Assembly (NCBI GenBank): GCA_021827995.1 | Contig: JAKATK010000014.1 | Span: 10,888-34,887, forward strand | Direction: 5' to 3' | DNA length: 24,000 bases | DNA from: Candidatus Micrarchaeota archaeon | GTDB taxonomy: Archaea > Micrarchaeota > Micrarchaeia > Micrarchaeales > Micrarchaeaceae | Part shown: piece by piece, positions 8,062 to 16,099 of the stretch | How the letters are laid out: every line of letters starts with the position of its first letter | Numbering within the stretch: position 1 is the first letter of the stretch | Notes under the pieces: model-generated | Databases searched by the model: none | Seen by the model: only the letters and a program-made list of their open reading frames with translations | Told to the model about the DNA's origin: nothing | Position numbers and translations under genes: made by a program

Positions 8062-8544
8062 TTACAGCATCTTAGCGTGTATGTTCGTTATCGGCCTGAA
8101 CCCCTGCTTCGCGTAGAACTCCACAGATATCCGGTTCTGCGATGGGAACTCTGCAGACACTAGGTGTATGCCGCGCTGCTTGAGCTTGCCGAGGGCGTGG
8201 CGCATGAGCTCAGTGCCTATCTCATGCTTCCTGAATTCCGGCATTATGTAGAACTCCTGCACCCTCCCCTCTGTGCCTGGCTCGTTGAAGATGCGGTCGA
8301 GTATCTCGACCTTAACGAAGCCCATGACCCTGCCCTCACGCTCGGCCACTATTATGATCGAGTCCCTGTCCTTAAGCGCATTGGTCACGTAAGCCTTCGC
8401 CTGCTCCCTCACGTCGTCCCTGACCTTGAGCATTGTGTCGAACTCCTCGTTTAGCCTCTTGAGCCTGACGACAAGATCCGTGACGGCATCTGCGTCGCCC
8501 TTGCGCGCGTCCCTGAACTTTACTCCGGCGTCTATCTTGGCCAT
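8062..8544 (-). CDS. GNAT family N-acetyltransferase
   Basis: 160 aa. Acetyl-CoA binding region EFYIMPEFRKHEIGTELMRHALGKLKQRG (R/Q-x-x-G-x-G/A-like) and C-terminal FYAKQGF. Confidence 0.8.
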   Translation of the reverse strand: MAKIDAGVKFRDARKGDADAVTDLVVRLKRLNEEFDTMLKVRDDVREQAKAYVTNALKDRDSIIIVAEREGRVMGFVKVEILDRIFNEPGTEGRVQEFYIMPEFRKHEIGTELMRHALGKLKQRGIHLVSAEFPSQNRISVEFYAKQGFRPITNIHAKML

Positions 8545-8562
8545 CGAAACACCACATAAGCA

Positions 8563-9894
8563 TTATGGCGGCATCCTAATTAATTTGTTCTTTACGAGCG
8601 TCGCGAGCGTGGACCTGCTCTCCTTTATTATGAAGTCCGCGCGCCTGTGGAACCAGGCCTTGGACATCCGCCTCTTCGCTACGTGCTGCTCTACTGCGCG
8701 CGCGGCCACTACCGCGGCCACCGCAGGATAAACGTCCCACTCGCTCATGTCCGGCAGTATGTGGTCCTCGGACAGGCCGTTCTTGGCCGCATACCTGGCC
8801 AGCTCTGTCGATGCCGCCACTATCATCTCGTCGGTTATCCTCGACGCCCTGGCGTCTAGCGCGCCCCTGAACATTGCCGGGAAGATGAGGCTGTTGTTCA
8901 CCTGGTTTGGGAAGTCCGACCTGCCTGTTGCCACTATCCTGGCGCCAGCCCCCTTGGCCTCCCATGGCCAGATCTCCGGTACCGGGTTCGCGAGTGTGAA
9001 TACGATCGAATCGCTGTTCATGGCGCTGATGCAGCCCTTGGGGAACTTGTCCGGACCAGGACCGGCTGCGGCCACCAGGGCGTCGGCGCCCTTGAGCGCA
9101 GCGTCCAGGCCACCCTCAACCCGGTCTGCATTGGTCTTGAGCGCGAGCTCGTACTTCCACGGGTTGTGCAGCTCCAGCTCGTCCAGGTCCTCCCTTTCCG
9201 GGTGCAGCGTGCCCTTCTTGTCGACGAGTATAATGTTGCCTGCCTTGAAGCCGGCTGCCATGAGCACCCTGGCGGTTGCTATGTTGGAGGCACCGGCACC
9301 GAAGAACACGACCCTTGTCTGGCCAACATCCCTGCCGGTAAGCTTCAGCGCGCCGAAGAGCCCAGCCAGCGTAGCGCCGGCAGTTCCCTGCTGGTCGTCG
9401 TGCCATACTGGAACGCTCAGCTTGCCTCGAAGGCTGTCTAGCAGGAAGAAGCATTTCGGCGACTCTATGTCCTCGAGGTTGAAACCTCCGAATGACGGCT
9501 CCAGGGCCTTCACGGTATCGAATATCTTGTTCTGGTCATGCACCCCAAGGGTTATGGGCACTGCGTTGACGCCACCGAGGTACTTGAACATCAGCGCCTT
9601 GCCCTCCATCACCGGCATGGCGGCCTGCGGACCGACGTTGCCGAGGCCGAGCACCCTGGTCCCATCGGTCACTATGGCTATGGTGTTCCACCTGCTCGTG
9701 AGCTCGAACGAAAGGTCGCTGTTGCGCTCGATGGCCTTCGACACCGCGGCCACCCCGGGCGTGTACCAGACAGAGAAGTCCTTCAAGCTGCGCACTGGAA
9801 CGTTTGGCACCACCGATATCTTACCGCCGTAGAACCTGGAGTAGCGTATCGCCAGCCTGTAGTATTTCTCGGTGTCGTGGTTCTTCTTAGGCAT
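8563..9894 (-). CDS. NAD(P)-dependent malic enzyme (oxaloacetate-decarboxylating malate dehydrogenase)
   Basis: VWYTPGVAAVSKAI, AIVTDGTRVLGLGNVG, FGGFNLEDI, HDDQQGTA and the Rossmann FFGAGASNIA motifs. ATG 9894 (MPKKNHD...) is preferred over the upstream track start 9909. Confidence 0.9.
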   Translation of the reverse strand: MPKKNHDTEKYYRLAIRYSRFYGGKISVVPNVPVRSLKDFSVWYTPGVAAVSKAIERNSDLSFELTSRWNTIAIVTDGTRVLGLGNVGPQAAMPVMEGKALMFKYLGGVNAVPITLGVHDQNKIFDTVKALEPSFGGFNLEDIESPKCFFLLDSLRGKLSVPVWHDDQQGTAGATLAGLFGALKLTGRDVGQTRVVFFGAGASNIATARVLMAAGFKAGNIILVDKKGTLHPEREDLDELELHNPWKYELALKTNADRVEGGLDAALKGADALVAAAGPGPDKFPKGCISAMNSDSIVFTLANPVPEIWPWEAKGAGARIVATGRSDFPNQVNNSLIFPAMFRGALDARASRITDEMIVAASTELARYAAKNGLSEDHILPDMSEWDVYPAVAAVVAARAVEQHVAKRRMSKAWFHRRADFIIKESRSTLATLVKNKLIRMPP

Positions 9895-9992
9895 CGAGCA
9901 CCACCGCAAGGGGCATGGTTGACATGTAGGTGAACGACTAAAGTATTTAGACCTCTCGCACGCATTACGTTTTTATGTGTAGATTCAGTTCG

Positions 9993-10634: not shown

Positions 10635-11969
10635 TTGAAGTCTTTTTCAGAGATGTCATTAAAGCCAGAGCTAGCAGAGGCCATAGGCAGGGTCGGGTTC
10701 ACCGCAGCAACTGAGGTGCAGGAGCGTTCCATACCCTCGATACTCCTGGGCAGGGACGTGATAGTCAGGGCCAAGACCGGTACCGGCAAGACCGCGGCGT
10801 TCATAATCCCTATAATGCAGCGCATAACGCACTCGGGTTCAGTGAGCGCAATAATCATAGTGCCCACCAGGGAGCTGGCGCTGCAGGTGGCCGAGTTCTC
10901 CCGCAAGCTGGGCGAGCACATGCGCCTACGCACCACCACGGTCTACGGCGGCGCGTCGATAAACGTGCAGACGAGCGAGCTGGAGCGCGGCACCGACATA
11001 GTCGTCGGCACGCCAGGCAGGATAATAGACCTACTGGACCGCGGCGTACTGAGGCTCGATTCCGTGAAGTTCGTGGTGCTGGACGAGGCGGACCGCATGC
11101 TCGACATGGGCTTCATAGAGGACATAGACTACATACTCTACAAGACGCCGATGAAGAGGCAGACGATGCTCTTCTCGGCCACGATGCCGCAGGAGATAGT
11201 CAAGATAGCAAAGCGACACATGGACCAGGGCGTCGAGACTATACTGGTGGGCGAGGACGACGAGCTCGTGGTCTCGACGATCTCGCACAGCTGCGCATTC
11301 GCCAACGGCAACGCCAAGTTCGCCTCGCTGCTCTGGTACATCGACAAGTTCAAGCCCAAGAAGTGCATAGTATTCTCGCGCACGCAGCGCTGGGCCGAGC
11401 TGATACACGACGTTCTAAGGAACAACGGCTACAACGCCGTGCTGCTGCACGGCGGCCTGACGCAAGCGGTGCGGGAGAGGTCCCTGAGCCACTTCAGGCA
11501 TGCCGGCGAGATACTCGTTGCCACTAACATAGCATCGAGGGGTCTCGATATAAACGACGTCACCGACATAGTTAACTTCGATACGCCTGAGACCTCTTAC
11601 GACTACATCCACAGGGTGGGCAGGTCCGCTAGGATGGGCAAGGAGGGCAGGGCGTTCACGATCTTCCGCTTCGACGAAAAGTGGATCAAGGATGACATAG
11701 AGTACGGCGCTAACATAAAGTTCGAGGAGCTCAGGCCAGAGCTCAGCAAGTACCCGAACGTAAGGCCACCAGAGCGCGCCAGGGAGCCGTTCGGTGGTCG
11801 CGGCGGTCCTGGCGGCCAGAGATGGCACAGGGGCAACCAGCAGTACGGCCGCGGGGAGCATCGCGATTACCGTGGGGGAAGGTTCCACCGCGGCGGCCAG
11901 CAGCACGGTCATCAGGGGCAGCACGGTCACCAGCAGTACCACAGACCGCAGGCGCAGGCCCAGGCCTAG
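10635..11969 (+). CDS. DEAD-box ATP-dependent RNA helicase with RGG/QH-rich C-terminal tail
   Basis: Q-motif (F...GFTAATEVQ), AKTGTGKT, PTRELA, TPGR, DEAD, SAT, ARGLD, HRVGRSAR. The TTG 10635 start retains the conserved Q-motif Phe; ATG 10653 is the alternative. Confidence 0.9.
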   Translation: MKSFSEMSLKPELAEAIGRVGFTAATEVQERSIPSILLGRDVIVRAKTGTGKTAAFIIPIMQRITHSGSVSAIIIVPTRELALQVAEFSRKLGEHMRLRTTTVYGGASINVQTSELERGTDIVVGTPGRIIDLLDRGVLRLDSVKFVVLDEADRMLDMGFIEDIDYILYKTPMKRQTMLFSATMPQEIVKIAKRHMDQGVETILVGEDDELVVSTISHSCAFANGNAKFASLLWYIDKFKPKKCIVFSRTQRWAELIHDVLRNNGYNAVLLHGGLTQAVRERSLSHFRHAGEILVATNIASRGLDINDVTDIVNFDTPETSYDYIHRVGRSARMGKEGRAFTIFRFDEKWIKDDIEYGANIKFEELRPELSKYPNVRPPERAREPFGGRGGPGGQRWHRGNQQYGRGEHRDYRGGRFHRGGQQHGHQGQHGHQQYHRPQAQAQA

Positions 11970-11971
11970 AG

Positions 11972-13930
11972 TCAGAGGCCCTTCTCGATCGCGTCCATAA
12001 TCTCGTGGGCTAGGAGCTCCTTCGTGCCGTCTACAAGCTTGGACGAGCCATCACGCATCAGTATGTGGGCGCGGTGCCTCGCCTCGGTGACCTGTGAGGA
12101 GTCGTTCAGCACCATGAGGCCGGCGCCGAGCTCCTTCATCCTGTGCCGGCCTGCTTCTATCATCCCCTTGTCGCTCATCATGTACTCCAGCTTGAAGCCG
12201 GCTATGAACAACTTCGGGAACTCTCTCGCTACCCTCTCTATGATCTTCGGAGTTGGCGTGAGCGACAGGTTCCACTTCCCGGTTGACTTTAGCTTGGTAT
12301 GCAGCTTGCTCTCAGGTTCGAAGTCCAGGACCGCGGCCGCGAATATTGCGGCATCGTATGGGCCAGACCTTAACTCCGAGAGGGTAGCGTCCAGCATCTC
12401 CTCAACCGTATTTGCCGCTATAGATCCCACGTACATCGGAACTGGCACCCTGGCTGGCCCAGTTATTACCTTGATCTCGCAGCCGCGCCTGAAGGCCTCC
12501 CTCGCTATGCTCGCGCCAAGCGCCCCGCTCGAGCTGTTCGATATGTACCTGACAGCGTCAAGGTAGTACCTGGTGGGCCCGGAGAGCAGCAGGATCCTCC
12601 TGCCTCTCAGCCTGCCTACGGCCAACTTCCTGTGCACGCTGTCCGAAACCTCGCGTATGCCAGGTATCTTGGCGATGCCCTCATCGATCCTTGGCGCTAT
12701 CACCATCGCGCCGCGCTTCCGCAGCTCCGCCAGGCTCTCCTTAAGCAGCGGATTGTCGTACAGCTTCATGTTCATGGCCGGCACTACTATCAGCTTGTCA
12801 TTGGGGTTGGCCGCGCACAGCGTCGTCACTGCGGTGTCCGCTATTCCAAGCGCAATCTTCCGTATAGTGTTCAGCGTCGCAGGGTAAACCAGTATTGCGT
12901 CGTAATCGGTGAGGTGCTCAGACATGCCGGTCAGGTGCGTGACCACGCCCCTGCCGGTCGCCCACTCCATGAGCGCTGGGCTGACGCCGAACTTCACAGC
13001 GCCATCGGTCATGAAGCACTCTACGTCGCAGCCGCTCCTACGCAGTTCCCTGGCGAGCCTGGGCGCCATTACGCTCGCGACGCTACCTGACATGCACAAC
13101 GCTACGCGCCTGCCAGCCAGCCAGTCGTTCTTCAGCGTCAGTTCGCCACCGGTCGGGTGCTTAGCGAACAGGCTACTGTAGTCCCCGAAGCCGTTAGTGC
13201 ATGGATTGCCTTCGGTGTAGAGAAGCCTGGACCTGCCAGCATCATCAGCGAGCGCGATTATTGTAGACGAGGTCATCTTCCAGTCGCCTGATCCGTGGAA
13301 GCATATCGAGGCGTGGCCCTTCTGTGATACGTGGTCCGCAGCGATAACCCCGATGCGTTTCAGCGCGTCGTCCAGCGACGCGCCTGGGATGCCAGCCGCG
13401 AGTCTCATGGCCCTCTCACTCCTGAGCGCAGAGCCCTTCCTGATCGCAGCGGTGCCAGCCTTGTAGACCGCGCCCTTCCTATGGACGAAGCTGGTTATGA
13501 CGTGGACACCGGCCTCAAGCTCTGTCTTCTGTACACGGCCTTCCTCGTAAAGCACGTGGAAAGCGGAGCGCTTGTCTGCGACCACGAAGTTGCCGCGCTT
13601 ATAGCCCATAGTGACCTCCTTCACAAGATAGTCGACAGCTGTCTTGGCGTCGTCGAACATGTTGAGCAGGTCGAGCATGAGAAGGCCGCGGCTGCGCCTG
13701 AAGTCGGTATCGATACCGGTGTGCTGGTCAGTGACTGCTACGAACAGGCCGCTCTTGTTAGCACCGATCCAGGTGCCGCCGCTCCTCACGTCAATAGGCG
13801 CATAAATCTCGCGCGCGCCCTTTATCCTGCGCGGCGGGTACTCCAGCGTGTCCGAACGCTCGTACCTGTTGTGCATAGCGACTATCTGGAAGCCGTCGAT
13901 TACCCGGTAGAGCAGCACCAGAGTGCACAT
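11972..13930 (-). CDS. coaBC: Tri-domain fusion: N-terminal TANGO2/NRDE-family domain + phosphopantothenoylcysteine decarboxylase (CoaC) + phosphopantothenate-cysteine ligase (CoaB)
   Basis: Uninterrupted 652-aa ORF. Residues 1 to about 256 (nt 13163-13930) show MC start, AMHNRYE (cf. NRDE), GGTWIG, GLFVAVTD, RSRGLL, RGNFVVAD and TSSTIIALAD, collinear with human TANGO2. Residues about 272-435 (nt 12626-13117) are a flavoprotein fold with VALCMSGSVAS, SEHL and VVPAMN. Residues about 441-652 (nt 11975-12610) carry GPTRYYLDAVRYISNSSSG, AAAVLDF and KLHTKLKS, the CoaB signatures. Confidence 0.85.
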   Translation of the reverse strand: MCTLVLLYRVIDGFQIVAMHNRYERSDTLEYPPRRIKGAREIYAPIDVRSGGTWIGANKSGLFVAVTDQHTGIDTDFRRSRGLLMLDLLNMFDDAKTAVDYLVKEVTMGYKRGNFVVADKRSAFHVLYEEGRVQKTELEAGVHVITSFVHRKGAVYKAGTAAIRKGSALRSERAMRLAAGIPGASLDDALKRIGVIAADHVSQKGHASICFHGSGDWKMTSSTIIALADDAGRSRLLYTEGNPCTNGFGDYSSLFAKHPTGGELTLKNDWLAGRRVALCMSGSVASVMAPRLARELRRSGCDVECFMTDGAVKFGVSPALMEWATGRGVVTHLTGMSEHLTDYDAILVYPATLNTIRKIALGIADTAVTTLCAANPNDKLIVVPAMNMKLYDNPLLKESLAELRKRGAMVIAPRIDEGIAKIPGIREVSDSVHRKLAVGRLRGRRILLLSGPTRYYLDAVRYISNSSSGALGASIAREAFRRGCEIKVITGPARVPVPMYVGSIAANTVEEMLDATLSELRSGPYDAAIFAAAVLDFEPESKLHTKLKSTGKWNLSLTPTPKIIERVAREFPKLFIAGFKLEYMMSDKGMIEAGRHRMKELGAGLMVLNDSSQVTEARHRAHILMRDGSSKLVDGTKELLAHEIMDAIEKGL

Positions 13931-13960
13931 GCACGCACCTACATTCGCTATGGTTTGCTG

Positions 13961-15889
13961 CTAGACAAAATTTAAGCTTGCGCCAGGCATGGAACCGTTG
14001 GGCGGGTATGCTCTAGTGCGTATCCAGTAGAACGTGACACTGCCACCGGAGCTTATGAATAAGCAGAGATACGATGGACCGATGTTAGGTATGTCATTTG
14101 AAGACGTAAGCTGGTTGCCGTAGTTATAATAACCATTGAGGTCTGTCTGGGACTGCCATGAGAGCGTGACTGTTATCGGGTAGCTGTAGGAACTGCCGGA
14201 TACCTGATTCGTGTTGCCGTTTGATATGGTTGGAAACTCTACCCACTGGTGCAGGCCGGAGGTAACGCCGTCAACCCATCCCCACCAACCGGAACAGCAG
14301 CCAGATGGCGTTTGCGTGTTCCAACCCAGCAGCTCGTCATGGCCATCGTATTGCGCCGTACCAGTATAGAAGTACGCGTCTGCCATCAGACCGGCGGGAG
14401 AGAGCCGGGTGGCGTAGTAGAAGAATATAGAGCCGCCGTTGCCAGTCAACGTTAAGCCGTTGTTGATGCTCTCGCCACCGCCATTGGCGCTGTAAGTCCA
14501 ACCTGACGGTACGGAAGAACCAGAGAAATCGGTGTAGACATTGAACACGTTTGCGCCGTTGTCGTACTGCGCGTATCTGGGACTTAGCTGCGGCGCCTCG
14601 CCTGCGATGGGCACGTCGAACTCCGTGCTTAACGGCTCGAACACCATGTATATCGTGTTTCCGGGCGCCGTCTGGGTTTCTCCGTTCGGCAGCTTTACCC
14701 AGAAGATCGCCTGCGACGACGATTGGTTGCTACACGCGGTCTCGGGGCAGCCCTCGAGCCACGAGGCCAGCGGCCCAGACGGGACGCCGTTCGTGAGCGA
14801 GGAGTAGAACCTTATGTTGCCCAGGTCGCCGCTCTCATAAGATGAATACGAAGAGGGGTTGAAAGTGATTTCCTGCTGGAACGTGCCTGATATCGTGCTG
14901 CCAGGATTGAGCGTTATCTGCACGTAAGGCGATGTCACTGTGAGCGTATACACGGCATTGCTCGTGGCACCGGTGAGCGCATTGGTGCCTGTCACCGTGA
15001 TCTGGTAACTGCCCGGCTGCGCCGACGCGGTGGTGTTTATCGATAGGATGCTGTTGCACGTAGGATCAGGCGTGCACGACAACGGGCTGAACGCCTTCGT
15101 TATAGTGGGCGGCGCGGTATCAGATAGCGTCACTACGTTGGCGTTGTTGGATATTGGTGTAGTAATCGTCACCAACGCGTTGGTCGACTGGCCTGCCGCG
15201 ATCGTGTTGCTGGTAGGGCTCACCGATACGGTGAAGCTGAACTGCCGCGCCGGTGGCGGTGCTGGCGGAGGCGAGGAAGATCCGGAACCTCCGCCGAAAT
15301 AGCCGCCGAACGATGCGCTGTTGGTACCCGCCTCCTTCGCCGTTATCGTAGCAACCTTCGAGTATGCCGTCGGGGCCGAGCACGGGCTCAGGCAGTAGCC
15401 CAGCCAGACGTAACCCGCGAACGGCGTCCCTATCGGAGCGTTCGCAGGTATCTGGCCGTACGCGAACTTGCTGGCGTTGAAGTCTGCGCCGACCGTTTGG
15501 CCCGGAAGTAGGTTGCCTATGAAGAGCGCCTTTGAAAGGTCGTTGGCCGTGAAGTTCTGCGGTACGCCCATACTGTTTAGCGGTTCGCCATCCGCGGCCA
15601 TGAACATAAAGGAATCGAAGTATTCCCTGCCCGTCGTCTGGCCGAATGTTATGCCTATACCGTTGGCGGTGTATACCAGGCTCTTGCAGACGAAGCCTGC
15701 TTGGGCGATGCAGGCCTGCGGTGCCAGGTTCGAGCCGTTGAAGACGCCGAGTTCGAAGAGCGCAGCTAGCACTACTGCTATGATCAGTATGGCCCATCCG
15801 TAGGTCATCAAGTACTCCATGGCTGACTGTGCTTTACTCCCGATCTTTTTGGCGATGGTACGCTGCGACTGCATGTGAATACTAACCAT
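13961..15889 (-). CDS. Large secreted/surface protein with archaeal class III (prepilin-type) signal peptide, beta-sandwich, DUF2341-like and lectin-like domains
   Basis: N-terminus ...KKIGSKA/QSAMEYLMTYGWAILIIAVVLAALF carries the Q-x-x-x-E-Y-L plus hydrophobic helix motif. It is followed by the Pro-rich linker GSGSSSPPPAPPPA, an S/T/N-rich beta-sandwich (GSYQITVTGT...YTLTVT), a DUF2341-like segment (GNIRFYSS...ASWLEGC...AIFWVKLPNG...IYMVF) and a W/G/Y-rich C-terminal lectin-like region. ATG 15874 (MQSQR...) is an alternative, possibly leaderless, start behind the TATA-like TTTAAATT at about 15897-15904. Confidence 0.75.
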   Translation of the reverse strand: MVSIHMQSQRTIAKKIGSKAQSAMEYLMTYGWAILIIAVVLAALFELGVFNGSNLAPQACIAQAGFVCKSLVYTANGIGITFGQTTGREYFDSFMFMAADGEPLNSMGVPQNFTANDLSKALFIGNLLPGQTVGADFNASKFAYGQIPANAPIGTPFAGYVWLGYCLSPCSAPTAYSKVATITAKEAGTNSASFGGYFGGGSGSSSPPPAPPPARQFSFTVSVSPTSNTIAAGQSTNALVTITTPISNNANVVTLSDTAPPTITKAFSPLSCTPDPTCNSILSINTTASAQPGSYQITVTGTNALTGATSNAVYTLTVTSPYVQITLNPGSTISGTFQQEITFNPSSYSSYESGDLGNIRFYSSLTNGVPSGPLASWLEGCPETACSNQSSSQAIFWVKLPNGETQTAPGNTIYMVFEPLSTEFDVPIAGEAPQLSPRYAQYDNGANVFNVYTDFSGSSVPSGWTYSANGGGESINNGLTLTGNGGSIFFYYATRLSPAGLMADAYFYTGTAQYDGHDELLGWNTQTPSGCCSGWWGWVDGVTSGLHQWVEFPTISNGNTNQVSGSSYSYPITVTLSWQSQTDLNGYYNYGNQLTSSNDIPNIGPSYLCLFISSGGSVTFYWIRTRAYPPNGSMPGASLNFV

Positions 15890-16099
15890 GCAAACAATTT
15901 AAACATGACCTTATGCCGGAATTTGTTTTGGCGTCTCACCAGCAACCGCTACGCTCGCGAAAAGGCATAAAAGGCTGTTATCTAGAGCTTATCGCAAGAC
16001 CACACTTCTAGTGGCGCCCCCTACCGTTCCGGTGTTTATCTGCTCTCGATACTATTCAATCGCGCAAGCAGGGAGTTCAGCGCAGTAGACCAATCCACT

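What the first reader, a model, noticed from the sequence alone, without database searches (positions are those of the whole stretch)
11972..13930. TANGO2/NRDE-family domain fused in frame to bifunctional CoaBC: a gene-fusion link between an enigmatic family and CoA biosynthesis
Seen: one uninterrupted 652-aa ORF. Its first ~256 residues are collinear with the TANGO2/NRDE (DUF833) family: Met-Cys start, AMHNRYE, GGTWIG, GLFVAVTD, RSRGLL, GNFVVAD, TSSTIIALAD. Residues ~272-652 are a complete CoaC flavoprotein (PAMN motif) plus CoaB (GPTRYYLDAVRYISNSSSG, AAAVLDF). Established: CoaB and CoaC convert 4'-phosphopantothenate plus cysteine to 4'-phosphopantetheine. The TANGO2/NRDE family is predicted to be Ntn-hydrolase-like with Cys2 as nucleophile, and its biochemical function is unresolved. 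From memory, human TANGO2 deficiency phenotypes have been reported to respond to pantothenate (vitamin B5), and both acyl-CoA handling and haem trafficking roles have been proposed. Inference: the physical fusion argues that the ancestral NRDE/TANGO2 activity acts on a CoA-pathway metabolite, for example hydrolysis or salvage of a pantetheine or cysteine-containing amide. The N-terminal placement is the only order that keeps Cys2 free as an Ntn nucleophile. I do not know whether this architecture has been described before.
Basis: partly seen in the sequence, partly recalled or inferred. Interest (0 to 1): 0.82.

Follow-up and report, generated by a model that had tools for sequence, protein, structure and literature searches.

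The report
TANGO2-like domain fused to CoaBC
An archaeal gene joins a relative of the human disease protein TANGO2, whose biochemical job is unknown, to the enzyme for the middle steps of coenzyme A synthesis; the same pairing is conserved across an archaeal clade and recurs independently as a two-gene unit in a bacterial phylum, pointing to where TANGO2-family proteins act.

Summary
Window 11972-13930 (minus strand) is one 652-aa ORF. It contains an N-terminal TANGO2/NRDE Cys-Ntn-hydrolase-fold domain (aa 1-256), a short linker, and a complete archaeal CoaC-CoaB. It is not an assembly artefact: the identical protein occurs in at least four independent assemblies, and close full-length variants exist. 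At least 38 protein clusters, 42-58% identical, share the collinear architecture in Micrarchaeota, Bathyarchaeia and related archaea. Cys2 is present wherever the N-terminus is intact.

In Marinimicrobia/Fidelibacterota bacteria, a canonical NRDE gene sits immediately 5' of a bacterial-type coaBC in 5 of 5 genomes examined, while the flanking genes differ; in one genome the pair lies beside panD-panB-panC. In the nearest Micrarchaeota relative, the fusion gene sits between coaD and an acyl-CoA dehydrogenase gene.

Caveats: most NRDE genes sampled are not linked to CoA genes. The fusion clade has HNRY in place of NRDE, losing the proposed catalytic Asp. Some strains of this population have deleted the gene. 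The chemistry is inferred. My favoured mechanism is an amidase that returns 4'-phosphopantothenate to CoaBC. I found no prior description in the searchable literature.

The parts
11972..13930 (-). Complete 652-aa ORF including the stop codon: tri-domain NRDE-CoaC-CoaB protein.
   Evidence: The identical protein is found in at least 4 independent assemblies.
13925..13930 (-). ATG-TGC start: Met1-Cys2, the predicted Ntn nucleophile once Met is removed.
   Evidence: Cys2 is present in 30/30 fusion homologues whose called N-terminus reaches this position.
13163..13930 (-). TANGO2/NRDE-family domain (aa 1-256) with a Cys-Ntn-hydrolase alpha-beta-beta-alpha fold; 'HNRY' subfamily.
   Evidence: Pfam PF05742 41.4 bits. 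AF2 pLDDT 88.8. Foldseek hits to 3GVZ, 8SV7 and 9BWA at E about 1e-11. Invariant residues listed.
13118..13162 (-). Inter-domain linker (aa 257-271), predicted with low confidence and probably flexible.
   Evidence: pLDDT below 70 around aa 256-272 and full-length pTM 0.58. The spacer between the GNPC and GSVA motifs is 34-38 aa in 31/36 homologues.
12686..13117 (-). CoaC (phosphopantothenoylcysteine decarboxylase) flavoprotein domain, aa 272-415, with conserved His339 and the PAMN motif.
   Evidence: PF02441 72 bits. TIGR00521. Invariant H339, P384-A385-M386-N387. Alignment to M. smegmatis CoaBC 6TGV.
11975..12610 (-). CoaB (phosphopantothenate-cysteine ligase) domain, aa 441-652, with GPTRYYLDAVRYISNSSSG, AAAVLDF and K546.
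   Evidence: PF04127 137 bits. TIGR00521. Alignment to 6TGV.
12293..15904 (.). Segment deleted and replaced by about 156 nt in co-occurring strains. The deletion removes aa 1-546 of the fusion gene and the upstream pilin-like gene.
   Evidence: blastn of L010 and L013 against the window, flanks 98.9-99.4% identical. 122-aa stub proteins P0066/P0067.

Best explanation
Shown. This is a genuine, conserved three-domain enzyme. An N-terminal TANGO2/NRDE-family Cys-Ntn-hydrolase-fold domain with a free Cys2 is joined by a short flexible linker to a complete archaeal CoaC-CoaB. CoaC-CoaB converts 4'-phosphopantothenate plus cysteine to 4'-phosphopantetheine. The fusion arose once in an archaeal clade (Bathyarchaeia and relatives; also present in Micrarchaeota, to which this window most likely belongs) and has been kept under constraint. 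An independent NRDE-coaBC gene pair in Marinimicrobia bacteria points to the same functional coupling.

Inferred mechanism. The NRDE domain is an amidohydrolase. After removal of Met1, it uses the Cys2 thiol to cleave the pantothenoyl-cysteamine (or pantothenoyl-cysteine) amide of spent, S-modified or mis-made 4'-phosphopantetheine or CoA-derived molecules. This releases 4'-phosphopantothenate, which is the CoaB substrate. The fused CoaB-CoaC then re-attaches a fresh cysteine. The whole would be a salvage or repair loop around the thiol end of CoA.

I put the functional link to the CoaBC step at about 0.85-0.9, and this particular chemistry at about 0.35-0.4.
For: Domain identity.

Reality of the ORF.

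Retention of the fusion.
- At least 38 clusters at 90% identity carry PF05742+PF02441+PF04127, are 636-681 aa long and are 42-58% identical to the window protein.
- The exhaustive phmmer search finds the fusion only in this clade among its top hits.
- The junction is collinear.
- Mean pairwise identity across 36 fusions is NRDE 49%, CoaC 66%, CoaB 57%, so the N-domain is constrained rather than decaying.
- Cys2 is present in 30/30 intact N-termini, and N21, R22, R81, G82, N114 and D119 are invariant or nearly so.
- Among GTDB species representatives, 10 intact fused ORFs occur in Micrarchaeota, Bathyarchaeia, 'Thermoprotei' MAGs and Ca. Scotarchaeum, plus split-adjacent forms.
- In an NJ tree all fused and adjacent forms fall in one clade.

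Independent bacterial linkage.
- L080 has nadA-nadC-NRDE-coaBC-DUF2520-panD-panB-panC.
- NRDE lies immediately 5' of coaBC, spaced -4 to +4 nt, in L121, L122, L123/L124 and L125/L126. Their NRDE proteins are 47-59% identical to that of L080, and the flanking genes differ.
- The bacterial partner CoaBC is bacterial-type: 275 bits against 6TGV, compared with 92 bits for the window's CoaBC.

Pathway context: coaD (TIGR01510, 179.7 bits) lies divergently upstream and an acyl-CoA dehydrogenase 17 nt downstream of the fusion gene in Micrarchaeota FK3.bin83.

Literature consistent with the proposed chemistry.
- TANGO2 binds acyl-CoA through its NRDE motif (PMC11867700).
- Docking places Cys2 at the pantothenoyl-cysteamine amide, with a phosphate/sulfate site at R32/K56/R88 (PMC12359130 and PMC13044924). 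R88-G89 aligns with the invariant R81-G82 here.
- Vitamin B5 rescues TANGO2 deficiency models, and a CoA-salvage defect has been suggested.
Against: - No biochemical data exist for any prokaryotic NRDE protein on CoA metabolites.
- The whole fusion clade, and its standalone sister proteins, have Tyr in place of the NRDE Asp. In human TANGO2 that Asp is proposed to position the Cys2 alpha-amino group.
- The window protein has Ser where most homologues have the Asn I provisionally align with the human oxyanion-hole residue Asn157. That alignment is by sequence only.
- Most NRDE genes sampled are not near any CoA or pantothenate gene within 6-10 kb. This includes Baldrarchaeota, about 30 Bathyarchaeia 'HNRYL' genes, haloarchaea and several other bacterial phyla.
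- The L128 fusion locus has no CoA-related neighbours.
- AlphaFold gives no fixed inter-domain interface (pTM 0.58).
- Some strains of the same population have deleted the gene, so it is not indispensable there.
- Human TANGO2 was reported to bind the acyl part of acyl-CoA, and free CoA was tested only as a competitor.
Confidence: 0.4

Rival explanations
1. The NRDE domain is an acyl-CoA or acyl-phosphopantetheine thioesterase or acyltransferase. It forms an acyl-Cys2 intermediate, as acyl-CoA:isopenicillin-N acyltransferase does. It would be coupled to CoaBC because both raise the free CoA or 4'-phosphopantetheine pool, not because they share an intermediate.
For: Acyl-CoA:IPN acyltransferase is among the best structural matches (E about 2e-11, TM 0.70-0.71). 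There is a weak NCBIfam C45 hit. Human TANGO2 binds C16 and C18 acyl-CoA (PMC11867700). PMC12359130 proposes acyl-CoA hydrolysis. An acyl-CoA dehydrogenase lies directly downstream in L127.
Against: The linkage is specifically to coaBC in 5/5 bacterial genomes and in all the fusions, not to acyl-CoA-metabolising genes. A thioesterase shares no substrate or product with CoaB or CoaC. PMC11867700 reports ruling out acyltransferase activity for human TANGO2.
Confidence: 0.2
2. The NRDE domain is a non-catalytic, or only vestigially catalytic, ligand sensor. It binds CoA or acyl-CoA and allosterically tunes CoaBC, giving feedback control of the pathway.
For: The proposed catalytic Asp is replaced by Tyr throughout the fusion clade. 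Human TANGO2 has so far been shown only to bind acyl-CoA. CoA and acyl-CoA inhibition of bacterial CoaB is known for M. tuberculosis CoaBC; I did not re-read PMC7794376, which was listed.
Against: Cys2, N21 and R22 are strictly conserved, and the Met-Cys start is retained in 30/30 intact N-termini. The Marinimicrobial partners keep the full canonical NRDE motif. The domain is always N-terminal, which only matters if a free N-terminal Cys is needed. AlphaFold predicts no fixed interface.
Confidence: 0.15
3. The NRDE domain serves the cysteine side of the CoaB reaction. Either it liberates L-cysteine from a cysteine-containing amide for CoaB, or it proofreads by hydrolysing mis-ligated products such as phosphopantothenoyl-serine or -homocysteine that CoaC cannot decarboxylate.
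For: The coupling is specific to the only cysteine-consuming step of the pathway. The Ntn-amidase fold fits either reaction.
Against: There is no direct evidence. No cysteine-metabolism genes recur in the neighbourhoods examined. The proofreading version overlaps chemically with the favoured explanation.
Confidence: 0.1
4. There is no functional link. On this view the fusion is a neutral accident inherited by one clade, and the bacterial adjacency is inherited synteny.
For: Most NRDE genes are unlinked to CoA genes. Only two lineages show linkage. The fusion has secondarily split, or the NRDE gene has moved away, in some members. The gene is deleted in some strains.
Against: The fusion persists down to about 42% identity with both halves constrained. 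The bacterial pair survives while both flanks are reshuffled, and it has coupled or overlapping stop and start codons. The partner CoaBCs are each native to their own domain of life. Additional pan and coaD neighbours are seen. Independent human and fly data link TANGO2 to vitamin B5 and CoA.
Confidence: 0.08
5. The long ORF is an assembly, frameshift or stop-codon artefact that joins two adjacent genes.
For: A few relatives do show separate adjacent genes (L109, L029) or frameshifted copies (L065, L069).
Against: The identical ORF is present in at least 4 independent assemblies. Population variants keep the frame. At least 38 divergent clusters share the same collinear junction.
Confidence: 0.01

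Closest known systems
Human TANGO2 and the prokaryotic NRDE/DUF833 family (PF05742; structures 8SV7, 9BWA, 3GVZ)
   Same: Met-Cys N-terminus. Alpha-beta-beta-alpha Cys-Ntn hydrolase fold (Foldseek E about 1e-11, TM 0.65-0.72). Conserved Asn-Arg of the NRDE motif, the GGTW(I/L)G motif, and the R-G pair equivalent to human R88-G89.
   Different: Fused to CoaBC. The motif is HNRY, so the Asp is replaced by Tyr. The window has Ser at the position provisionally aligned with human Asn157. Sequence identity to human TANGO2 is only about 16-18%. There is an insertion in the helical region (aa 150-200).
Bifunctional CoaBC (Dfp; TIGR00521), e.g. M. smegmatis 6TGV and standalone archaeal CoaBC
   Same: Complete CoaC flavoprotein plus CoaB ligase in the usual order, scoring above the equivalog cutoff. 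Key motifs are conserved. coaD is a neighbour in a relative.
   Different: Carries an extra 256-aa N-terminal Ntn-hydrolase-fold domain. Public annotation names only CoaBC.
Acyl-CoA:isopenicillin-N acyltransferase (peptidase C45; 2X1C/2X1D/2X1E)
   Same: Among the best structural matches. A Cys-Ntn enzyme that binds a CoA thioester and forms an acyl-Cys intermediate.
   Different: It is made as a proenzyme that autoprocesses internally. It is about 100 aa longer. Identity is 17-18%. It has no link to CoA biosynthesis.
Vanin-type pantetheinase (nitrilase superfamily)
   Same: Functional analogue of the proposed chemistry: a Cys-dependent hydrolysis of the pantothenoyl-cysteamine amide that recycles pantothenate (basis: established knowledge; reviews listed).
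   Different: Unrelated fold. Extracellular or GPI-anchored in animals. Acts on unphosphorylated pantetheine. No homology was tested or expected.
Shewanella HtpA (SO0126), a bacterial TANGO2 homologue proposed as a haem-trafficking protein (PMC10470608)
   Same: Same Pfam family (DUF833/NRDE).
   Different: Proposed function is haem chaperoning for cytochrome c maturation. Its gene neighbours a metal transporter, not CoA genes. The haem role of the family is contested.

Membership tests
TANGO2/NRDE (PF05742, DUF833) | Significant match to the family profile HMM. | tested here: met
   41.4 bits against a gathering cutoff of 22.6, aa 1-147. All close homologues carry a precomputed PF05742 hit.
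TANGO2/NRDE (PF05742, DUF833) | Met-Cys N-terminus (Cys2 as putative Ntn nucleophile). | tested here: met
   ATG-TGC start with no upstream in-frame start codon. Cys2 present in 30/30 intact fusion N-termini.
TANGO2/NRDE (PF05742, DUF833) | Alpha-beta-beta-alpha Ntn-hydrolase fold matching solved TANGO2/NRDE structures. | tested here: met
   AF2 pLDDT 88.8, pTM 0.89. Foldseek: 3GVZ E 6e-12, 8SV7 E 1.3e-11, 9BWA E 1.9e-11.
TANGO2/NRDE (PF05742, DUF833) | Canonical N-R-D-E motif (human N25-R26-D27-E28). | tested here: not met
   The window has N21-R22-Y23-E24. Tyr is invariant in 36/36 fusions and in the nearest standalone relatives; more distant archaeal and bacterial members keep NRDE. It is therefore a divergent 'HNRY' subfamily rather than a canonical member.
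TANGO2/NRDE (PF05742, DUF833) | Other proposed active-site residues (human N75, N157, K166; phosphate-site R88). | tested here: inconclusive
   R88-G89 aligns with the invariant R81-G82. N75 aligns with D68. The provisional N157 equivalent is Asn in 32/36 homologues but Ser in the window. The K166 equivalent cannot be placed without coordinates.
TANGO2/NRDE (PF05742, DUF833) | Hydrolase or ligand-binding activity. | not testable with these tools
The family's own activity is still unresolved in the literature.
Bifunctional CoaBC (TIGR00521) | Score above the equivalog trusted cutoff over the full model. | tested here: met
   268.7 bits against 219.7; model positions 2-391 of 392.
Bifunctional CoaBC (TIGR00521) | Flavoprotein (CoaC) domain followed by DFP (CoaB) domain, with conserved catalytic motifs. 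| tested here: met
   PF02441 at aa 275-415 and PF04127 at aa 441-614. His339, PAMN, GPTRxxLDxVRxISNxSSG, AAVLDF and K546 are conserved in the family and align to 6TGV. The assignment of catalytic roles to these motifs is from memory of the E. coli Dfp literature.
Bifunctional CoaBC (TIGR00521) | It is the organism's working CoA-pathway enzyme (sole copy, pathway context). | tested here: inconclusive
   coaD is adjacent in the nearest relative. However, the window has no CoA-pathway neighbours, the rest of the genome could not be searched, and some strains carry a deletion of the gene.
Rosetta-stone (functionally informative) fusion | Recurrent fusion or adjacency of the two components in independent lineages. 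| tested here: met
   Archaeal fusion clade, plus the NRDE-coaBC pair in 5/5 Marinimicrobia/Fidelibacterota genomes with a bacterial-type CoaBC.

The most novel reading that the evidence does not exclude
TANGO2/NRDE proteins are the missing intracellular '(phospho)pantetheine amidase'. On this reading, Cys2 cleaves the pantothenoyl-cysteamine amide of damaged, S-modified or surplus 4'-phosphopantetheine or CoA. This regenerates 4'-phosphopantothenate for PPCS/PPCDC (CoaBC). The result is a CoA thiol-repair and salvage cycle conserved from archaea to humans. Its loss would explain why vitamin B5 supplementation rescues TANGO2 deficiency.
Probability: 0.3. Interest if true: 0.92.

Novelty: new variant of a known kind. 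Interest (0 to 1): 0.8.

Why it matters
TANGO2 deficiency is a life-threatening childhood metabolic disease, and the biochemical function of its protein is still disputed. Proposals include haem chaperone, acyl-CoA binder and unknown Ntn hydrolase. Patients are treated empirically with vitamin B5.

A conserved physical fusion, together with an independent conserved operon, links the family specifically to CoaBC. Those are the phosphopantothenate-cysteine ligation and decarboxylation steps. This is evidence independent of the human and fly data, and it points to the CoA pathway and to a particular node within it.

It turns an open question into a short list of assays on soluble prokaryotic enzymes. 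It also flags an unannotated domain on dozens of database entries currently labelled only 'CoaBC'.

Tried and rejected
- Assembly or frameshift chimera: rejected.
- Conserved NRDE-coaBC adjacency among the closest standalone relatives: looked for in P0004, P0007 and P0008 and not found. Their neighbours are Maf, DUF2207, M24 peptidase and HAD.
- Metagenome scan with the Marinimicrobial NRDE protein: found no close relatives (best 36% identity), and none of those lay next to CoA genes. It only re-found archaeal fusion or adjacent loci L108-L110.
- tblastn of PanB, PanC, PanD, DUF2520, CoaD and acyl-CoA dehydrogenase against all 129 fetched loci: no further CoA-pathway neighbours beyond L080 and L017/L127, plus a distant ACAD in L082.
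- Direct phmmer of the N-domain against PDB sequences: only E = 1.3 to human TANGO2. The relationship needed the Pfam profile and the fold search.
- Full-length AlphaFold model: gave no confident inter-domain geometry (pTM 0.58), so channeling cannot be argued from structure.
- Literature searches for prior description (TANGO2 with phosphopantothenoylcysteine, operon or neighbourhood, DUF833, pantetheine, or gene fusion; also the fusion survey PMC4921024): nothing found. The library omits most subscription-journal papers, so absence is not proof.
- The 122-aa and 99-aa cluster members: first considered as evidence of an insertion. They are explained instead by a 3.6-kb deletion allele plus a rearranged variable surface-protein locus.
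Full report

The window contains one uninterrupted ORF on the minus strand, 11972..13930, of 652 aa. It starts ATG-TGC. An in-frame TAG lies 33 nt upstream with no alternative start codon in between, and a GGTG motif sits 6-9 nt upstream of the ATG.

Pfam finds three domains:

| Domain | Residues | Score |
|---|---|---|
| TANGO2 (PF05742) | 1-147 | 41.4 bits (gathering cutoff 22.6) |
| Flavoprotein (PF02441) | 275-415 | 72 bits |
| DFP (PF04127) | 441-614 | 137 bits |

The NCBIfam equivalog model for bifunctional CoaBC (TIGR00521) scores 268.7 bits against a cutoff of 219.7 over residues 272-648.

An AlphaFold2 model of residues 1-262 is confident (pLDDT 88.8, pTM 0.89). Its best matches among solved structures are the bacterial NRDE-family protein CV2077 (3GVZ, E 6e-12, TM 0.72), human TANGO2 (8SV7 and 9BWA, E about 1e-11) and acyl-CoA:isopenicillin-N acyltransferase. 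Bile-salt hydrolases, NAAA and acid ceramidase follow, which together make up the Cys-Ntn hydrolase superfamily. The domain assignment is therefore confirmed by both profile and fold.

**2. Is it an artefact?**

No. The identical 652-aa protein is called on contigs from four independent sources: ENA ERZ27237319 (a 90.5-kb contig), ERZ27237336, NCBI GCA_027338305.1 and Logan SRR13205813. Its 90%-identity cluster holds further full-length variants with 6-8 amino-acid substitutions spread over all three domains.

**3. How widespread is the architecture?**

An exhaustive phmmer search of 1.84 billion cluster representatives with the full protein returned one further full-length fusion (P0078, 656 aa, 45% identity, aligned 1-650) and two junction-spanning fragments. 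Everything else in the top 150 was a standalone CoaBC or a standalone NRDE protein.

A profile search of the 5.8-billion-protein collection then listed at least 38 clusters of 636-681 aa, all carrying PF05742+PF02441+PF04127 and 42-58% identical to the window protein. Where a source names them, the name is only 'bifunctional CoaBC'.

Across 36 full-length members:
- The junction is collinear. The spacer between the NRDE-domain GNPC motif and the CoaC GSVA motif is 34-38 residues in 31 of 36.
- Mean pairwise identity is 49% for the NRDE domain, 66% for CoaC and 57% for CoaB. The N-domain is therefore under purifying selection and is not a decaying relic.
- Cys2 is present in all 30 proteins whose called N-terminus reaches that position.

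A scan of GTDB species representatives, followed by ORF classification, found intact fused ORFs in the following:
- a Candidatus Micrarchaeota MAG (L017, the closest relative: 54% identity in the N-domain, 61% in CoaBC);
- several Bathyarchaeia;
- 'Thermoprotei' MAGs from Guaymas;
- a MAG labelled Nitrososphaerales;
- Ca. Scotarchaeum otlingeri.

A few relatives have the two parts as separate but abutting or overlapping genes (L109, L029, and the pair P0013/P0269) or as frameshifted copies.

In a rough neighbour-joining tree, all fused and adjacent forms fall in one clade, with a fused protein as the deepest branch. Standalone Baldrarchaeota genes are nested inside that clade. A large clade of standalone Bathyarchaeia 'LHNRYL' proteins is its sister. 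The simplest reading is one ancient fusion, long retention and occasional fission.

The window most likely comes from a Micrarchaeota (DPANN) archaeon. Its nearest fusion homologue is from a Micrarchaeota MAG, and its malic-enzyme region is 74% identical at the nucleotide level to another Micrarchaeota MAG.

**4. Independent linkage in Bacteria**

One GTDB hit, a Neomarinimicrobiota single-cell genome (L080), has a canonical NRDE gene: MCTLMM...SNRDEAY, 228 aa, Pfam TANGO2 103 bits. Its stop codon lies 1 nt before the start of coaBC. The gene cluster reads nadA-nadC-NRDE-coaBC-DUF2520-panD-panB-panC, and each assignment is confirmed by Pfam.

That NRDE protein belongs to a family of about 70 clusters from Marinimicrobia/Fidelibacterota. 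I examined four more genomes whose NRDE proteins are 47-59% identical to that of L080, including a complete 3.1-Mb chromosome. In all of them NRDE lies immediately 5' of coaBC, with spacing of +3, +4, -4 and -4 nt. The genes on both sides differ between genomes: nadA/nadC or HIT or GAF upstream, and a TonB-dependent receptor or unknown genes downstream.

The bacterial partner CoaBC is clearly bacterial-type. It scores 275 bits against M. smegmatis CoaBC (6TGV), whereas the window's CoaBC scores 92 bits. The Marinimicrobial NRDE proteins also cluster apart from the archaeal fusion clade. The association with coaBC has therefore arisen at least twice.

**5. Further pathway context**

In the Micrarchaeota relative (L127), the fusion gene is flanked by two CoA-related genes:
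- a divergently transcribed coaD (pantetheine-phosphate adenylyltransferase, TIGR01510, 179.7 bits against a cutoff of 103.3), which consumes CoaBC's product;
- an acyl-CoA dehydrogenase, 17 nt downstream on the same strand.

The window itself has no CoA-pathway neighbours. The fusion gene lies tail-to-tail with a DEAD-box helicase gene and 30 nt downstream of a 642-aa pilin-like surface-protein gene.

**6. Limits of the linkage**

- The nearest standalone relatives (43-48% identity) are not next to coaBC or any other recognisable CoA gene.
- The same holds for about 30 Bathyarchaeia 'HNRYL' genes, for haloarchaeal NRDE genes, and for NRDE genes from several other bacterial phyla, within 6-10 kb.
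- Another fusion locus (L128) has no CoA-related neighbours.
- The linkage is therefore lineage-specific, not a universal property of the family.

**7. Active-site comparison**

The 2026 crystal-structure paper proposes human Cys2, Asn25, Arg26, Asp27, Asn157 and Lys166 as the catalytic set, and describes a sulfate site formed by Arg32, Lys56 and Arg88 (PMC13044924).

In the fusion family:
- Cys2, Asn21 and Arg22 are conserved.
- The Arg88-Gly89 equivalent (Arg81-Gly82) is invariant.
- The Asp27 equivalent is an invariant Tyr, giving the motif HNRY. The closest standalone proteins share this feature; more distant archaeal and bacterial members, including the Marinimicrobial ones, do not.
- The position I provisionally align with human Asn157 is Asn in 32 of 36 homologues but Ser in the window.

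The archaeal clade is thus a divergent subfamily. Its catalytic competence is plausible, given the strict Cys2 conservation and the invariably N-terminal placement, but it is unproven.

**8. Mechanism**

Shown:
- a conserved tri-domain protein;
- domain-level constraint on all three parts;
- two independent genomic couplings of NRDE to coaBC;
- coaD and pan-gene neighbours in individual genomes.

Established knowledge: CoaB ligates 4'-phosphopantothenate to cysteine, and CoaC decarboxylates the product to 4'-phosphopantetheine.

From the literature:
- TANGO2 binds acyl-CoA through the NRDE motif (PMC11867700).
- A docking study places Cys2 at the pantothenoyl-cysteamine amide of palmitoyl-CoA, with the diphosphate at R32/K56/R88 (PMC12359130).
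- Vitamin B5 rescues TANGO2-deficient flies and cells.
- A review speculates about a CoA-salvage defect (PMC11179719).

Inference: the NRDE domain is a Cys-Ntn amidase. It cuts the cysteamine or cysteine end off spent, S-modified or mis-made phosphopantetheine-type molecules. This regenerates 4'-phosphopantothenate, which is the substrate of the CoaB to which it is fused. That is the only reading in which the extra domain shares a metabolite with CoaBC specifically. It would also explain B5 responsiveness.

I put it at about 0.35-0.4. The rivals are an acyl-CoA thioesterase or acyltransferase (0.2), a CoA or acyl-CoA sensor regulating CoaBC (0.15), cysteine supply or proofreading (0.1), and no functional link (0.08).

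The full-length AlphaFold model has well-folded domains (pLDDT 85) but a low pTM of 0.58 and a low-confidence linker. It therefore neither supports nor excludes channeling.

**9. Prior knowledge and novelty**

The fused proteins are already in public databases, annotated as CoaBC. I searched the held literature for TANGO2 together with phosphopantothenoylcysteine, operon or neighbourhood terms, DUF833, pantetheine, and gene fusion. I also read the two structure papers, the acyl-CoA paper, the bacterial HtpA paper and a systematic metabolic-fusion survey. I found no mention of an NRDE/TANGO2-CoaBC fusion or operon. The library lacks most subscription-journal papers, so this is not proof of absence.

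I class the finding as a new variant of a known kind: a CoaBC that carries an Ntn-hydrolase-fold domain. Its main value is as comparative-genomic evidence about an unresolved disease-protein family.

**10. Population variation**

In several assemblies from the same sample series, window 12293-15904 is replaced by about 156 nt. This deletes the pilin-like gene and residues 1-546 of the fusion protein, while the flanks remain 98.9-99.4% identical. A third Micrarchaeota MAG retains only a 37-aa stub. The gene is therefore dispensable or lost in some strains. That fits a host-dependent DPANN lifestyle, but it means the gene's essentiality cannot be assumed.

Noticed in passing
window 12293-15904; loci L010-L013: A 3.6-kb deletion allele, with about 156 nt of filler, removes the pilin-like gene and aa 1-546 of the NRDE-CoaBC gene. 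It appears in several independent assemblies of the same population, with flanks 98.9-99.4% identical. It leaves a 122-aa ORF that database clustering groups with CoaBC.
   Followed up: partly
L014-L016 (ENA ERZ27237460/444/515); window 13689-14026: Contigs carry the first 80 codons of the fusion gene (97% nt identity) followed by unrelated genes (a 162-aa ORF and a Methyltransf_21 gene). They are preceded by a much more divergent (72-82% nt) copy of the pilin-like/DUF2341-like gene. This suggests a hypervariable surface-protein locus whose rearrangements clip the fusion gene.
   Followed up: partly
L091:10001-10096 (Ca. Micrarchaeota MAS5.bin21): Only a 37-aa N-terminal NRDE stub (MCTFVL...MHNRYQRS) remains, next to a malic-enzyme gene that is 74% nt-identical to window 8071-9895. 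This is probably a pseudogene remnant of the fusion in a third Micrarchaeota species.
   Followed up: no
window aa 199-244 of the ORF (nt about 13199-13336); alignments A2-A5: Prokaryotic NRDE proteins, fused and standalone, share invariant D199-H200, C210-x-H212 and C244 (the GNPC motif). This Cys/His cluster could be a metal or structural site. It is not discussed in the TANGO2 structure papers I read.
   Followed up: no
L080:12101-12874: A Rossmann plus DUF2520 ORF sits between coaBC and panD-panB-panC in the Marinimicrobial cluster. From memory, DUF2520 proteins include the PanG-type ketopantoate reductase, which would complete a pantothenate pathway in this cluster.
   Followed up: no
L127:9308-9799 (-): The coaD next to the Micrarchaeota fusion gene matches the bacterial-type pantetheine-phosphate adenylyltransferase model TIGR01510 (179.7 bits). 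This suggests horizontal acquisition of CoA-pathway genes in this DPANN lineage.
   Followed up: partly
window 10635-11969 (+): The DEAD-box helicase gene, convergent with the fusion gene (2-nt spacing between stop codons), ends in an RGG/Gln-His-rich low-complexity tail. Its length differs between strains (438 vs 444 aa).
   Followed up: no
P0084 (607 aa), P0092 (597 aa), P0099 (588 aa): Other archaeal CoaBC proteins carry different C-terminal extensions of about 200 aa. One looks like a class II aldolase/adducin-type domain by eye, so CoaBC may be a recurrent fusion partner.
   Followed up: no
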